From assembly GCA_964016885.1 (NCBI GenBank), contig OZ024742.1, forward strand, positions 253,022,001 to 253,086,000: DNA of 64,000 nt, written 5' to 3'. Under the pieces are notes generated by a model. The model was given only the letters and a program-made list of their open reading frames with translations. It made no database searches and was not told the origin of the DNA. Positions within the stretch are counted from its first letter, which is position 1; each line of letters opens with the position of its first letter. This DNA is from Eledone cirrhosa. Its lineage: Eukaryota. Shown here piece after piece: positions 11,283 through 21,866 of this stretch. The position numbers and the translations under genes were made by a program.

Positions 11283-12725
11283 GATATTGTTATACTTTGG
11301 GAGGGTCATGCTGCTAATAAAACCTAGTCACTGAGGAGGTCACAGAATGCGTGACGAAAGAGCTTTGACAATATATAAACAACCTTTCGGTTATTGAACA
11401 AACCAGCCAGCCAACTGGAAACTTATAATAAATTGAAGTGAAAACCAACAGGTTCATGTGTTTTTATTGCCTGCATGACCCCTCCCAAAGTATAACAATA
11501 TAATAATATCATAATCTTGGCTCCATCCTTGCACCCCAATAGTTGCCCTCCTCTCCCACATATCTGACACCAACCACACCCTCCGCTTCTCCGATCCTTC
11601 ATTTTTCCACTTGGCCCTCACTCTCCTTTTCACCATTGACATCAAACCTCTCTACATGATTGTTCCAGATGCTGAAGGCCTAAGTGCCCTCCAACACATC
11701 CTCAACCTTCACCCTTCCCCTCAACCCTCCACCTCCACCCTCACCAGCCTTGCTGAGCTGGTCCTCATCCTCAACTACTTTTCCTTCTTGGATGAGTCCT
11801 ACCAACAGATAACTGGCATGGAGATGGACATGGGCACCAGAATGGTCCCTATCTATGCCAACCTATTTGACATCTTTGTCTCCATTGACCCCTTCCCATC
11901 GTTCCCTCATCATCTCTACCTTCTTCAAACCCACCGACTCCCACTCTTACCATGATTTTACCTCATTCCACCCCACTCATACCAAACACTCCATCCCCTA
12001 CTCCCAATTTTTCTGTCTCTGCCACCTATGCTGTTGAACCCATGACTTTGAGGCTCAGGCCCATTACATGGCTAGATTCTTCCCTGGTCCATGCTGCCCT
12101 CACCAGTCCCTCACTCCACACCTCTGTCCTCCACCAACTGACTCCTATTCCCGCTTACCTACCTCACCTCCACCTTGCCTCTCCTGAGAAAAGTCGTCAG
12201 GCTCTTTCTCTACCTTTAGTTAGACCTGCTTCATCTCCACCATCATCCCCCTCCCAACACTCCTCTCCTTCAAGCATGCTCGTAACCTCCAAAATCTCCT
12301 TGTCTGCAGTTCCTTTCTTCAAACTCCTTTCCTGGATCCCACTTTTGCTCCCGACTTCATGCCACATATGTAATTTCGTCACCACCATCACCACCCTCTG
12401 TGGGCCCAATGGCCAATCTTTCCAATCCAGGGACTCCTTCCATTGCCTCTCCTCCAGCCTTGTCTATGGGGTCTGTTGTATGTTATGCAAGGCTGTCTAC
12501 ATTGGACAAACCAGTCGCTGATTAGTGGACATGTTCGCCAAACATCTCTGGGACATTCAGCTAGGCACCCAGTCTCCAGTCACCAGGTATCTCCACTCTT
12601 CTGGACACTTCACCCACCACCTCACTGCTTTCAACCTCGTTGCTTGCTCTGCAGCCTCTGACACACCTGAGAACAGAGCAGCAGATTATTTTCTCTCTCC
12701 AGACCTAAAGCGGAAACAACCTTAA
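11283..12725 (+). mobile_element. Penelope-like element remnant (RT + GIY-YIG) with adjacent inverted pLTR piece
   Basis: RT: LLFTIDIKPLY, LAELVLILNYFSF..YQQITG..MGTRM.P.YANLF, FFKPTDSHSY; GIY-YIG: SLVYGVCC.LC..YIGQT; inverted repeat 11285-11323 / 11460-11500. Confidence 0.85.
11327..11369 (+). ncRNA. Minimal type-I hammerhead ribozyme-like motif
   Basis: gtca-CTGAGGA-g-gtcac(agaatgc)gtgac-GAAA-gagc-TT-tgac. Confidence 0.6.
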
Positions 12726-13216: not shown

Positions 13217-14103
13217 AGAGGTAGTGTCAGAAAAGTTCCAGGACTTATGTCACAAAAGATTTATTTCAAACCCAAACTTCACACTAAGACTTTTCTCCTT
13301 CAAAGTAATCCCCCTGGAGTATGTAACTGTAATCTTAGCTCTCTGCAGCGATCAAACTTTTTTCTTCATAATTTTATATACATGTCCTCTGTTTCAGGTC
13401 GTCAAGCAATGAGCACAGAGCAACGAACAAACTTGAAGTTTCTGGTACGGTTGGGGAAAACTCCGTCAGAGATGAGACGATGTCACGCTCACGTGTTTTT
13501 GAGTGGTGCAAGAGGTTTAAAGAAGGATGCGAGAACGTGGAAGATGACCCCAGGAGCGGAAGGCCCTCAACAACCAGGACTGAGGTCAACGTTGAGCGCG
13601 TCAGGCAGATAGTGCGTAGCGATCGTCGGCTGACTGTTCGACTGATGGCAAATGAGCTGGGCATGAATCGGGACAGCATCTGGAAGATTCTCACTAAAGA
13701 TTTGGACATGCGGAATGTCTGCGCGAAGATGGTGCCAAAACTGCTGAACGATGACCAGAAGGGTCGACGCTTGCAAGTGTGCCAGGACATCCTCGAGCAT
13801 CTTGAAACCGAACCAGTCTTGCTAGGGACAGTCATCACCGGTGATGAGTCATGGATCTTCGAGTACGACCTAGAGGGGACCGGTTTTGAAGATGTGGACG
13901 ACATCAAAAAGGCTATGACGACGGAACTGCGGAGGATCCCGGAAGAATCCTTCCAGGAGTGCATGCAAGCGTGGCAGAAAAGGATGGAAAAGTGCATTAG
14001 ACTCCAGGGGGATTACTTTGAAGGAGAAAACTCTGAGTGTGAAGTTTGGCTTTGAAATAAATCTTTTGTGACATCAGTCCTGGAACTTTTCTGATACACC
14101 TCG
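13217..14103 (+). mobile_element. Internally deleted mariner with ~104 bp extended inverted ends, TA TSD
   Basis: EQRTNLKFLVRLGKTPSE, SRSRVFEW.KRFKEG..VEDDPRSGRP, VITGDESW fused directly to the C-terminal GDYFEG; IR 13217-13320 / 14001-14103. Confidence 0.93.
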
Positions 14104-17267: not shown

Positions 17268-18096
17268 TATAGCTCTGATTATTTAATTTATTAATTTCTC
17301 ATTGAGCCACAACGTGACCAGTTGCAAAACACATATATATCTATGACTTTATATATATATGTAAATCTTTATATATATATATATACATTTATTTAGGTTT
17401 GTTGGTTCACCACTGAATAGAATTGGTTATTCCGTATGGTCAATCTCGATGTAATATTATGGAGAATACTCAACGTAATGCAGCTCACCCGTCTTCGTTT
17501 GTGTAGTTGGTGGTGCGAGTGCGGAGTTAATTATTATAATAAAATAACAGGAGGCTGGACAGGTGTAAATCCTTGAAAGGTTTATTATACTATGATCATT
17601 TCAATGACCAGGTTCCGTATGAACCCGGTGATATCATGAGGTATTCGAAATATAACAAAGGAATATAACAGATAAAATCCATGCGGCTGAAAATCATAGA
17701 CAAGAGGACGACCGACCATCTAGCATCTTCTACCTCAGTCGGTCCCCCTCAAGTGTTGGCTATTCAGTCTACTTATGACCATCTGGTGAGGAGGCGAAAG
17801 CTTATAATGTGCTACTACCTCCCCGTCAAAGAGAAAAAAGAAGAAAGAAGAAAAGTCAGCGTTAAGGTCATGCTACAATCAGGCTAGAAATTGCCGTGAA
17901 AAATGTTTTTCCAAAGAACCTATATCTTAACAGAGACATATATAGTAGGCGTCTGTATGGTATAATGTGTGAACAGAAATTTGGAACGTTAAACTTATGT
18001 TTAGAGTTATAGGATGAAATTAAAAAATTTAAAAAAGTTTAAAGTTTGATTTGCGAGATTTAGTTAAAGAATTTACAGAGAGAGTCTTTTATGAAA

Positions 18097-18715
18097 AAGG
18101 CTACGTTGGTATGGTCACGTGATGCGCATGAAAGACGACAGCTGTATAAAAAAGTGCAGGGCAATAAAGGTAGACGGTAGCCACGGAGTAGGCAGACCCA
18201 GAAAAACCTGGGACGACTTGATAAATTCCGACCTCACACACTTACACCTCTCCAAGACAATGTCACTGGACCGGGATCTTTGGCGGTACTCAGTAATAGA
18301 GAAGGCCCGCCTTACCTAAATACAAAGTGAAACCTACTACAGTCAGTAGGCACCTCTAACAAAATACACCCCCGTCCCACCACCCCCACCCCATCCACAC
18401 CGCCCCTTTCAATGTAAAGTTATGTTGGTGCCACAACATCCAGTCCGAAACAAATGAGGTCGTGTAGGTGTCACGACAAAAAAAACACAGTCCACGCTGT
18501 AATGTGGCCGTGTAGGTAACACGGTAAAAACCTCCCAGTCCCACACTGTAAATGTGGTTGGTGTTAGGAAGGGCATCCAGCTGTAGAAAACCCGCCAGAC
18601 AGTATACGCGAGCGAGACAACCACTCTTGCCTCAAGTGGGAAAACTCCCGTCCAAACCCATGCAAGCGTGGAATGTGGACGTTAAACGATGATGATGATG
18701 ATGATGATGATGATG
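18097..18715 (+). mobile_element. 5'-truncated PHD-RTE copy nested in the 2.1 kb element
   Basis: RLRWYGHVMRMK...KARLT*, 3'UTR, (GAT)n; absent from the inverted duplicate at 21211-21240. Confidence 0.95.
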
Positions 18716-20315
18716 TATTATAGAGATTCTCGATAAGTTTTCAGGGTAGGATATATAGTAAAGATTAAGCCCTTGTTTAGCAGTTAATAACACGCGACGA
18801 CTGCAGATCTCGGCTAGCCCTTCCTAACCACGTGTCAGCCATTCCGAGTGATATCGTCTAGCGAAAGAGATGGAAATTAATTTTTCCGAGTACTCCAGGA
18901 ATGTAACTGTCTTAGGCATCGGGTGTGTTAGTGGGAAGTCTGCCATCGTCATCAGTCCATTGCTATACCAAACGAATACTATTAATTCACACAGGAGGGG
19001 GATTTGTTTACGTGCCAGTAGAAGGAGGCATGATACAGCTAATAGTTATGATAAGGCCTAGGATTTAAAGGTACTATATAGCGGTCAAAACCGGCGGCGT
19101 GGCGGGCCCTGGGGCAAAGCAAGCCGCTCCGAGTAATTTCATTTACCGAAAGAAGGGGAAATTTATTTTTCCAAGCACTCAAGGAAGGCTTATCCACCTA
19201 AGGGCCTGGCGCGCAGCCAGGAAAGCGACCACATCAGTCGGATCATCGCGTGTAACCAAACGGTTATTATATATTCACATCCGTGATGTGAGGTTGAAAG
19301 TGGTAAAACCCGATGAAATGCGCAAATAGACTATATTTAAGTCCCCAGTTAGTCCGGGTTATAAGTAGTGTGGTTCTTTGGTGGGTAGGGGGAGATATAA
19401 GGGTACAGAGAGTAATATTCTAGCTAATGAGCACAATGATGAGTACATAATGAGAGTAAAGCGAGTAAAAACCTAAATAAAAGGAACAATAAGCAAAAAT
19501 ACATAAATAATTAAAAGCAGAATACAAAAATAAAAATACATTAATAAAAATACATTAATAAAAGTAAAAATACATAAATAAATAAAAGCAGAATACAAAG
19601 ATAAAAATACATTAATAAAAATACATTAATAAAAGTAAAAATACATAAATAAAACGCTGTCATAGCTAGGGTGGCGATGGAGTAAAACGGAAGTATATAA
19701 GAACATATCAGAGAAATCAAAACACAGGGGAAATAAAATATAGATCAAGTTGCAGTTAGATAATACAAGGTTATACATATAGATATAGAGGATGAAAGAG
19801 ATGGAATGGTATCAGGTGATACCTAGTGTATGTTCGAGTCTCAGAATTCAGTGTGAATCACAAAGGCTCTGAAGTATAGGGTAAAGAATTCAGTCAATAC
19901 AATACAGGTTATAGTATAATCCGTAGAATTTTGTCGAAGTCTGAGTATTCCCAACAGGGAAGCAGCATTGGACCAGGTGAGCTGTAGATAAAGCACAGAG
20001 CAGCCAAAATCCGAATGGTGAGTAGATCAGTCAGTCCCATGCTGGCGATAGCTGTACACTGGAGTCAGTGCCGCTGTTCATTACATCTGAAAGCGCTCAA
20101 TATTTCTGGAGCATTATTTATTTAGGTTTGTTGGTTCACCACTGGATAGAATTGGTAATTCCGTATGGTCAATCTCGATGTAATCTTATGGAGAGTACTC
20201 AATGTAATGTAGCTCACCCGTCTTCGTTTGTGTAGTTGGTGGTGCGAGTACGGAGTTAATTATTATAATAAAATAACAGGAAGCTGGACTGGTGTAAACC
20301 CTTGAAAGGTTTATT

Positions 20316-20373
20316 ATACTATGATCATTTCAATGACCGGGTTCCGTATGAACCCGGTGATATCATCAGGTAT
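20316..20373 (-). ncRNA. Minimal type-I hammerhead ribozyme (intact CUGAUGA core)
   Basis: atac-CTGATGA-tatc accgggttc(atacg)gaacccggt catt-GAAA-T(GATC)A-TA-gtat, followed by aataaa. Confidence 0.7.
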
Positions 20374-21690
20374 TCGAAATATAACAAAGGAATATAACAG
20401 ATAAAATCCATGGGGCCGAAAATTATAGACAAGAGGACGACCGACCATCTAGCATCTTCTACCTCAGTCGGTCGCCCTCAAGTGTTGGCTATTCGGTCTA
20501 CTTATGACCATCTGGTGAGGGGGCGAAAGCTTATAATGTGCTACTACCTCCCCGTCAAAGAGAAAAAAGAACCACACTACTTATAACCCGGACTAACTGG
20601 GGACTTAAATATAGTCTATTTGCGCATTTCATCGGGTTTTACCACTTTCAACCTCACATCACGGGTGTGAATATATAATAACCGTTTGGTTACACGCGAT
20701 GATCCGACTGATGTGGTGGCTTTCCCGGCTGCGCGCTCGGCCCTTAGGTGGATAAGCCTTCCTTGAGTGCTTGGAAAAATAAATTTTCCCTTCTTTCGGT
20801 AAATGAAATTACTCGGAGCGGCTTGCTTTGCCCCGGGGCCCACCACACCGCCGGTTTTGACCGCCATATAGTACCTTTAAATCCTAGGCCTTATCATAAC
20901 TATTAGCTGTATCATGCCTCCTTCTACTGGCACGTAAACAAATCCCCCTCCTCTGTGAATTAATAGTATTCGTTTGGTATAGCGATGGCCTGACGACGAT
21001 GGCAGACTTCCCGCTAGCACACCTAATTTACATTCCTGGAGTACTCGGAAAAATTAATTTCCATCTCTTTCACTAGACGATATCACTCGGAACGGCTGAC
21101 ACGTGGTTAGGAAGAGCTAGCCGGAATCTGCAGTCATCGCGTGTTATTGACTGCTAAACAAGGGTTTAATCTTTACTCTATATCCCACCCTGAAAACTTA
21201 TGGAGAATCTCTATAATACACTTAAACTTTTTCATAAAAGACTCTCTCTGTAAATTCTTTAACTAAATCTCGCAACGCAAAACTTAAACTTTAAAAAATT
21301 ATTTAAATTTCTTCCTATAACTCTAAACATAAGTTTAATGTTCCAATTTTCTGTTCACACATTATACCATACAGACGCCTACTATATATACCTCTGTTAA
21401 GATATAGGTTCTTTAGAAAAACATTTTTCGCGGCAATTTCTAGCCCGATTGTAGCATGACCTTAACGCTGACTTTTCTTCTTTCTTTCTTTCTTCTTTTT
21501 TCTCTTTGACGGGGAGGTAGTAGCGCATTATAAGCTTTCGCCCCCTCACCAGATGGTCATAAGTAGACTGAATAGCCAAAACTTGAAGGGGACCGACTGA
21601 GGTAGAAGATACTAGATGGTCGGTCGTCCCCTTGTCTATGATTTTCAGCCGCATGGATTTTATCTGTTATATTCCTTTGTTATATTTCGA

Positions 21691-21748
21691 ATACCTGAAG
21701 ATATCACCGGGTTCATACGGAACCTGGTCATTGAAATGATCATAGTAT
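21691..21748 (+). ncRNA. Minimal type-I hammerhead ribozyme (CUGAAGA core)
   Basis: Same fold as 20316-20373; the third copy at 17587-17644 (-) has a mutated CUCAUGA core. Confidence 0.7.
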
Positions 21749-21822
21749 AATAAACCTTTCAAGGATTTACACCAGTCCAGCGTCCTGTTATTTTATTATA
21801 ATTATATATATATATACATATA

Positions 21823-21866
<44 letters not shown>

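What the first reader, a model, noticed from the sequence alone, without database searches (positions are those of the whole stretch)
17385..21802. Non-coding ~2.1 kb hammerhead-delimited element: candidate giant retrozyme or non-autonomous PLE
Seen: hammerheads at 20316-20373 and 17587-17644 are in tandem on the minus strand, about 2.1 kb apart once the nested RTE is removed. A ~1.2 kb inverted copy with a third hammerhead is joined through aaagaa microhomology at about 20566-20571. The copies are highly similar (young), yet no RT or GIY-YIG remnant is visible. The only notable ORF is a 43-aa hydrophobic one (MGLTDLLTIRILAALCFIYSS..., minus strand, about 19915-20045). Known: partial-tandem plus inverted 5' pLTR is the PLE integration signature; described animal non-LTR retrozyme monomers are only a few hundred nt. 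Inference: a much larger passenger RNA, excisable by two ribozymes and possibly circular, mobilised in trans by PLE RT/GIY-YIG.
Basis: partly seen in the sequence, partly recalled or inferred. Interest (0 to 1): 0.75.

Follow-up and report, generated by a model that had tools for sequence, protein, structure and literature searches.

The report
Large protein-less Penelope passenger with hammerhead
This is one copy of a 2-3 kb jumping DNA family that carries no protein gene, has a predicted self-cutting RNA motif and has spread to thousands of TA-repeat sites, likely by borrowing the enzyme of Penelope-type retrotransposons; its copy ends suggest it is copied from RNA that is not cut at that motif, which weakens the proposed RNA-circle reading.

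Summary
The anatomy is confirmed: three minimal type I hammerhead motifs, a 2,121-nt unit, a 1,240-nt inverted arm joined at AAAGAA, and no coding remnant. The locus is one of thousands: 4,796 exact hits of a 25-nt hammerhead motif. At least four subfamilies have units of mostly 1.8-3.0 kb, and none of 87 bodies tested had its own Penelope ORF. Arms end at two fixed sites (about 60 and 204 nt past the predicted cut), mostly in (TA)n, and 27 of 29 inverted pairs have one of each. That is the Penelope integration signature. Of 56 mapped 5' ends, none lies within 10 nt of the cut and 45 run past it. In this copy the 3' and inverted arms share 4 changes absent from the 5' repeat, which does not fit one circular monomer. 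A circle is not excluded for the family; there are no RNA data. The partner was not found; a shared tail block points to Hydra-like elements. The 43-aa ORF is not conserved. The scan reported smaller (310-467 nt) families of similar design elsewhere in this genome. Verdict: new, large variant of a known kind.

The parts
17387..20571 (-). Main arm: 456-nt partial repeat (pseudo-LTR) followed by one full unit; ends at the long 3' end, 204 nt past the predicted cut
17387..17529 (-). Tail of about 143 nt between the short and the long 3' end; begins with the ACTCC...GAGTACT block
17587..17644 (-). 3' hammerhead motif with G5-to-C change (CUCAUGA); predicted inactive
   Evidence: essential G5 is recalled knowledge
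17704..17750 (-). GC-rich hairpin 114-160 nt upstream of the cut (3' copy)
   Evidence: position by homology with 20433-20479
18100..18713 (+). Nested 614-bp 3' fragment of a high-copy LINE with a (GAT)n tail; 6 target bases lost. 'RTE' label is recalled from the RLRWYGHV..GRPRKTW motif; Pfam gave no hit
18843..18901 (-). Second copy of a conserved internal motif of about 50 nt (predicted three-way junction, no compensatory pairs)
19122..19186 (-). First copy of the same internal motif
19491..19632 (.). 71-nt internal tandem duplication in this copy
19909..20040 (-). 43-codon ORF plus stop; kept in most subfamily A copies, frameshifted in subfamily B; probably incidental
20116..20571 (-). 5' partial repeat (pseudo-LTR), 96% identical to 17387-17842
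20316..20373 (-). Intact minimal type I hammerhead motif: 4-bp helix I, long helix II, palindromic AUGAUCAU helix III, AUA triplet
20433..20479 (-). GC-rich hairpin (z -3.5 for 20405-20480), two pairs with compensatory changes between subfamilies
20566..20571 (.). AAAGAA microhomology joining the two arms head to head
20566..21805 (+). Inverted 5'-truncated arm; lacks the nested insert; ends at the short 3' end, about 61 nt past the cut
21691..21748 (+). Third hammerhead motif (CUGAAGA), core intact
17340..17386 (.). (TA)n-rich left flank (target)
21806..21863 (.). (TA)n right flank (target)

Best explanation
The locus is one insertion of a large, dispersed family of ORF-less 2-3 kb elements that is likely copied in trans by the reverse transcriptase/GIY-YIG protein of a Hydra-clade Penelope-like element. 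Shown: thousands of copies, a closed non-coding unit, TA targets, two fixed 3' ends, head-to-head arms, and arms that run through the hammerhead site. Inferred: a longer-than-unit RNA with the hammerhead site uncut (or resealed) is bound near its tail; both strands of a (TA)n site are cut; one DNA end primes about 204 nt and the other about 60 nt downstream of the hammerhead cut; the two cDNAs stop at variable points and join by microhomology. Most stop after a few hundred bases; a minority pass one full unit and leave a partial tandem, as here. For this insertion the template most likely held two slightly different repeats (a linear tandem transcript, or a switch between two RNAs). The hammerhead is kept by selection across subfamilies and would need a dimer or a protein to cut; its cut does not mark the ends of the cDNA.
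For: Copy number: 4,796 exact hits of a 25-nt motif, control 0; 5,534 hits of a gapped core pattern. Position-ordered sample of 60 loci: 96 arms, 44 short ends, 50 long ends, 82 TA-flanked; 27 of 29 two-arm pairs have one long and one short end. Hammerhead-to-hammerhead period: 51 periods, median 2,238 nt, 47 between 1.8 and 3.0 kb. No coding relic: best Hydra-like profile score 2.5 bits in 55 units versus 3.4 in reversed controls, and no tblastn hit with three full PLE ORFs; 30 of 32 further bodies without a hit, the two hits lying in bodies with no closing hammerhead. Between subfamilies the hammerhead is 91% identical and the next 55 nt 88%, against 62-64% in flanking zones (18 pairs). 5' ends of upstream partial copies: 0 of 56 mapped (69 loci) within 10 nt of the cut, 45 upstream of it (0 of 55 within 5 nt). 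This copy: 4 derived sites shared by 3' and inverted arms only, 0 for the other two pairings. Tail block ACTCC..GAGTRCT found in this family and in two ORF-linked Hydra-like families, in 0 of 3 Neptune/Poseidon-like ones. Literature: partial tandem, inverted arm and one-sided tail define PLE insertions and Hydra targets (TA)n (PMC8557442); two internal RT start sites make the tail, and hammerhead cleavage was not needed in vitro (PMC11167929).
Against: No autonomous partner sharing DNA similarity was found among the Poseidon-, Neptune- and Hydra-like families sampled; the genome holds tens of thousands of unscored PLE candidates, so the search was far from complete. The tail block was defined after seeing the sequences and partly on a lead from another AI note, and 3 other Hydra-like families lack it. 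Across 18 three-arm loci there is no family-wide bias: all three share 15 derived sites, 3'+inverted 8 (4 from this locus), 5'+inverted 8 (5 from one locus, L308), 5'+3' 6, so both repeats are often copied from one sequence, as a circle or template jump would give. Gene conversion could explain this locus's 4 sites, 3 of which are at CpG. One of 40 loci holds about 2.7 units (L174). Most short arms are too short to assign to a coding or non-coding parent. No RNA evidence of any kind.
Confidence: 0.68

Rival explanations
1. Giant circular retrozyme: two hammerheads dimerise, cut out a 2-3 kb monomer, a host ligase closes it, and a PLE enzyme copies the circle for more than one round.
For: Palindromic helix III allows an 8-bp dimer duplex (-7.2 kcal/mol); hammerhead strongly conserved; seamless unit junction and read-through of the cut site also follow from a resealed circle; 15 derived sites shared by all three arms; one 2.7-unit tandem; model proposed in PMC4209133 and PMC7229834.
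Against: This insertion's arms split 4-0-0 in favour of two different template repeats; long tandem arrays typical of retrozymes were not seen (1 of 40 read-through loci with more than two hammerheads at unit spacing); monomer folds inactive and minimal PLE hammerheads cut poorly in vitro (PMC4209133); 3' core of this copy is mutated.
Confidence: 0.2
2. The hammerhead and tail are the ordinary end of an autonomous PLE not yet found, and the thousands of short arms are its truncated copies; the 2-kb units are a minor side branch.
For: Autonomous Hydra-like families here have 1-1.5 kb or longer UTRs and similar hammerheads; most arms stop within about 300 nt of the cut and cannot be assigned.
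Against: Every arm that could be followed upstream or downstream led into the non-coding body of subfamily A, B, C or D; a relaxed search of what follows the long end showed, among the first 100 rows, TA/host DNA or the family's own junction, and four odd ones inspected were deletions or nested inserts.
Confidence: 0.07
3. A DNA-level foldback or MITE-like transposon, or a host lncRNA/micropeptide gene.
For: Inverted arms flank the insertion; a 43-codon hydrophobic ORF is open in most subfamily A copies with omega about 0.7 (35 synonymous, 57 non-synonymous).
Against: Arms have variable 5' truncation and unequal fixed 3' ends, not terminal inverted repeats; each inversion joint tested is private; the ORF is frameshifted in subfamily B and has no Pfam hit above cut-off.
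Confidence: 0.04

Closest known systems
Non-autonomous Penelope-like elements (MRC1 and Chlamys-N4_cRei of Chlamydomonas; Craig et al. 2021 PMC8557442, passages; PMC9977147, passages; short non-autonomous Penelope in Heliconiini, PMC6685494, passages)
   Same: No ORF, pseudo-LTR partial tandems, strong 5' truncation, microsatellite target.
   Different: Animal, hammerhead-bearing, 2-3 kb, four diverged subfamilies; published cases generally resemble their autonomous partner at the 3' end, whereas no such partner was found here. Sizes of the Chlamys non-autonomous families were not found in what was read.
Metazoan non-LTR retrozymes (Cervera and de la Pena 2020 PMC7229834, passages and Discussion; Li, Clavereau and Pollet 2026, bioRxiv 10.64898/2026.07.22.740005, parts 1-3 of 5)
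   Same: Non-coding unit delimited by type I hammerheads, low GC, proposed PLE mobilisation.
   Different: Described consensus units are 51-972 bp (that survey capped the tandem period at 1000) or about 300 bp ('150 to >1000 nt' is mentioned once without an example); they form dimers to long arrays and several are shown circular. Here units are 2-3 kb, mostly at most 1.2-1.5 units long, with a minimal hammerhead and no circle shown.
Hydra clade of C-terminal-endonuclease PLEs, incl. Hydra-1_Obim (PMC8557442, section 11 and supplement passages)
   Same: (TA)n target, hammerhead near the 3' end, partial tandem and inverted arms; in this genome two ORF-linked Hydra-like families share the tail block and the two-end pattern.
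   Different: No ORF; tail about 143 nt against the 30-40 bp given for PLEs in general; no DNA similarity beyond the short block.
Poseidon element of Anolis studied in vitro (Frangieh et al. 2024 PMC11167929, parts 1-2 of 4)
   Same: Two internal priming sites downstream of the hammerhead, tail between them, uncut RNA as template.
   Different: Autonomous, other clade; tail short; shown biochemically there, only inferred from copy ends here.

Membership tests
Non-autonomous Penelope-like element | Dispersed high-copy family with 3'-anchored, 5'-truncated copies | tested here: met
Non-autonomous Penelope-like element | Partial tandem (pseudo-LTR) plus inverted 5'-truncated arm | tested here: met
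Non-autonomous Penelope-like element | Tail present at only one end of the insertion | tested here: met
   27 of 29 inverted pairs have one long and one short end; tail about 143 nt, longer than the published 30-40 bp
Non-autonomous Penelope-like element | No RT/GIY-YIG ORF or relic in the unit | tested here: met
   55 units and 32 bodies; hits only in separate or nested insertions
Non-autonomous Penelope-like element | 3'-end similarity to an autonomous partner in the same genome | tested here: inconclusive
   no BLAST similarity to the families sampled; short tail block shared with two ORF-linked Hydra-like families
Non-autonomous Penelope-like element | Mobilisation in trans by a PLE protein | not testable with these tools
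   needs an in vitro or cell assay
PLE minimal type I hammerhead | Core CUGANGA...GAAA...UH, 4-5 bp helix I, long helix II, palindromic helix III | tested here: met
   125 of 155 flank-anchored copies have all 12 core positions intact; description in PMC4209133
PLE minimal type I hammerhead | G10.1-C11.1 pair closing helix II | tested here: not met
   U.U (or an extra U and A-U) at that place in all copies
PLE minimal type I hammerhead | Self-cleavage | not testable with these tools
   monomer predicted to misfold
Metazoan non-LTR retrozyme | Tandem repeats of two or more complete hammerhead-bearing units | tested here: not met
   this locus has 1.2 units; 1 of 40 read-through loci had more than two units
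Metazoan non-LTR retrozyme | Monomer of about 50-1000 nt | tested here: not met
   median period 2,238 nt
Metazoan non-LTR retrozyme | Expressed as monomeric circular RNA | not testable with these tools
   no RNA holder listed
Hydra clade PLE (autonomous) | Single ORF with RT and C-terminal GIY-YIG | tested here: not met
Hydra clade PLE (autonomous) | (TA)n insertion preference | tested here: met
   82 of 96 arms TA-flanked

The most novel reading that the evidence does not exclude
A long-lived lineage of 2-3 kb protein-less RNA replicons, two to three times longer than any animal retrozyme consensus in the papers read, that is cut and resealed into circles by a dimeric or protein-assisted hammerhead and copied by a Hydra-type enzyme it recognises only through a short tail structure, with its own conserved internal RNA modules.
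Probability: 0.2. Interest if true: 0.7.

Novelty: new variant of a known kind. Interest (0 to 1): 0.45.

Why it matters
It extends hammerhead-bearing Penelope passengers in animals from a few hundred bases to 2-3 kb, a size that tandem-repeat surveys capped at 1 kb could not see. Thousands of copies give a natural read-out of Penelope transposition: two priming sites, one per target strand, and no stop at the ribozyme cut. This bears on two open questions, what PLE hammerheads are for and whether circles are the template, and gives a defined RNA (tail, hammerhead, hairpin) to test with a Hydra-type protein. It is not a new class of element.

Tried and rejected
Rfam searches of the window and of 17380-21810 found no hammerhead or other relevant family. 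Partner search: Poseidon-like (20 loci), Neptune-like (4 of 30 loci compared by BLAST), Hydra-like (5 of 30 loci; 30 loci; 20 further stretches) gave no similarity to the unit. PLE ORFs next to family copies in L018, L063, L104, L178, L196, L298 were inspected and are separate insertions, mostly split off by (TA)n; L189's long frame is a nested LINE fragment; the antisense hit in L305 was not inspected further. A by-eye likeness of the ORF region to Hydra N-termini was not supported by a profile search. No A-to-G excess on the sense strand in 18 subfamily A copies (74 A>G, 145 T>C). The internal 50-nt motif shows no compensatory pairs. RNA search: no RNA holder listed; the three runs laid are contigs of one sample of unrecorded kind and say nothing on expression. 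A bacterial promoter scan is irrelevant here. Rows dropped before counts: L182 had no outgroup; bodies without a closing hammerhead and L189 were left out; 13 of 69 loci were unmapped; L013 is a duplicate of this locus.
Full report
Observation. A scan of the whole window for type I hammerhead topology gave motifs at 20316-20373 (-), 17587-17644 (-) and 21691-21748 (+), plus one unrelated motif. All three have a 4-bp helix I, a long helix II and the palindrome AUGAUCAU as helix III, with AUA as cut triplet. The 17587-17644 copy reads CUCAUGA, a change of core G5 that is expected to abolish cutting (recalled knowledge). The minus-strand motifs are 2,729 nt apart; the 614-bp LINE fragment at 18100-18713 replaced 6 target bases, so the unit is 2,121 nt. 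The inverted arm (20566-21805) lacks that insert and joins through AAAGAA; the joint is found only here and in a 99.4-99.9% identical duplicate of the region about 375 kb away. Both outer ends lie in (TA)n.

Family. A 25-nt piece of the hammerhead has 4,796 exact hits in the 3.0-Gb genome, control 0; a gapped core pattern has 5,534. Twenty best hits to the 5' part all carried the same unit. To avoid that bias I fetched the first 60 loci in genome order from the 100 listed motif hits. They hold 96 arms: 44 end 45-66 nt past the predicted cut, 50 end 195-210 nt past it, 82 are flanked by TA repeats, and 27 of 29 two-arm inverted pairs have one long and one short end. This window shows the same: long end at 17387, short end at about 21805. 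Loci in which the long end runs on into the next unit were found with two junction patterns (177 hits; a looser one) and 40 plus 35 were fetched. They fall into at least four subfamilies, labelled A-D by eye. Of 51 hammerhead-to-hammerhead periods the median is 2,238 nt and 47 lie between 1.8 and 3.0 kb; some have 5' and 3' repeats 99-100% identical, so the family was active recently. Between subfamilies the hammerhead keeps 91% identity and the next 55 nt 88%, against 62-64% in neighbouring zones.

No coding capacity. A profile of 21 Hydra-like proteins scored at most 2.5 bits on 55 units, no more than on reversed controls, and three full-length PLE ORFs from this genome gave no tblastn hit. 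In 32 further bodies only two hit, both without a closing hammerhead; one was inspected and is a separate insertion after a TA run. The 43-aa ORF is open in most subfamily A copies with omega about 0.7, but frameshifted in subfamily B, so it is probably incidental.

Mechanism. Partial tandem, inverted 5'-truncated arm and a one-sided tail are the published PLE signature (PMC8557442, passages). In vitro, a Poseidon protein cuts both strands of AT-rich DNA, starts reverse transcription at two internal RNA sites that bound the tail, and does not need hammerhead cleavage (PMC11167929, parts 1-2). The one-long-one-short pairing here fits two primings on one RNA, one from each side of the break (inference). 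Both priming sites lie downstream of the hammerhead cut, so the template must be continuous across it. The 5' ends of upstream partial copies confirm this: 0 of 56 mapped lie within 10 nt of the cut, 45 lie upstream, up to 1 kb. A linear monomer cut at both ends is therefore not the template. Uncut tandem RNA, template jumps and a resealed circle all remain.

Circle or not. With one circular template all three repeats of an insertion start identical. In this window the 3' and inverted arms share 4 derived sites that the 5' repeat lacks, with none for the other pairings and 4 shared by all three. That favours a template with two different repeats, though 3 of the 4 are CpG sites and gene conversion is possible. 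Over 18 informative three-arm loci the counts are 15 shared by all, 8, 8 and 6 for the three pairings, i.e. no family-wide bias; repeats are often homogenised, which a circle or a jump would do. One of 40 loci has about 2.7 units. The intact motif folds best into an inactive form (-20.6 against -9.7 kcal/mol) and could pair as a dimer through its palindrome, as described for minimal PLE hammerheads with low activity (PMC4209133, parts 1-2). No RNA run was listed.

Partner. The genome holds young, intact Poseidon-, Neptune- and Hydra-like families (clade labels are by resemblance, the Hydra label checked by eye against Hydra-1_Obim in the supplement of PMC8557442). None sampled shares BLAST-level DNA similarity with the unit. 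Several other families have the same hammerhead build and two-end pattern, and two of them run continuously into a Hydra-like ORF. A block ACTCC..GAGTRCT just past the short end is in 8 of 15 tails tested: this family (3), those two ORF-linked families (3) and two families of unknown coding status; it is absent from 3 other Hydra-like, 3 Neptune/Poseidon-like and one further tail. The block was defined after the fact, following a lead from another AI note, so it is a pointer, not proof.

Comparison and novelty. Non-autonomous PLEs are known (PMC8557442; PMC9977147; PMC6685494; bioRxiv 2022.06.16.496473; passages), and animal retrozymes are argued to be PLE derivatives of 51-972 bp (bioRxiv 10.64898/2026.07.22.740005, parts 1-3 of 5; PMC7229834, passages and Discussion). 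Seven literature searches listed no hammerhead-bearing, ORF-less animal PLE family of 2-3 kb; subscription journals and repeat databases were not searchable. It works like a retrozyme-type PLE passenger, is best filed as a non-autonomous PLE, and fails two retrozyme features (size, tandem arrays). Earlier notes of this scan describe 310-467 nt families with the same two-arm design on other DNA of this genome; none matched this sequence. Verdict: new variant of a known kind, interest 0.45.

Noticed in passing
window 7674 to at least 25514; L328, L013, L329: A block of at least 17.8 kb is duplicated at 99.4-99.9% identity about 375 kb away on the same contig: recent segmental duplication or uncollapsed haplotype.
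   Followed up: partly
window 19122-19186 and 18843-18901 (-): Internal motif of about 50 nt, repeated one to three times per unit in all subfamilies (144 instances in fetched loci), folding as a three-way junction without compensatory pairs; absent from the autonomous PLE loci checked.
   Followed up: partly
window 20433-20479 (-); L059, L062, L064, L065, L078, L086, L091, L105: GC hairpin upstream of the hammerhead; many inversion joints of short copies appear to fall inside it, suggesting an RT stall or annealing site; not counted rigorously.
   Followed up: partly
L019, L022, L025, L086, L111, L207, L279, L306, L317: A group of related hammerhead families with a 6-nt palindrome, a C.C mismatch near the base of helix II in several, and homologous tails; at least one is linked to a Hydra-like ORF.
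   Followed up: partly
window 11327-11369 (+): Small unrelated hammerhead motif near a Neptune-like ORF remnant starting at about 11620.
   Followed up: no
L077, L174, L178, L189, L196, L326: The same short element (begins AATTGTTTCTAC) has inserted repeatedly at or near the unit junction of different copies, suggesting a target preference.
   Followed up: no
L273 (G000:C1:91471000-91480999): Tandem array of intact 784-aa Hydra-like ORFs with a 3.5-kb period and no hammerhead found by the simple scan.
   Followed up: no
window 13372-14055 (+): 227-aa frame resembling a mariner-type transposase fragment (label recalled).
   Followed up: no
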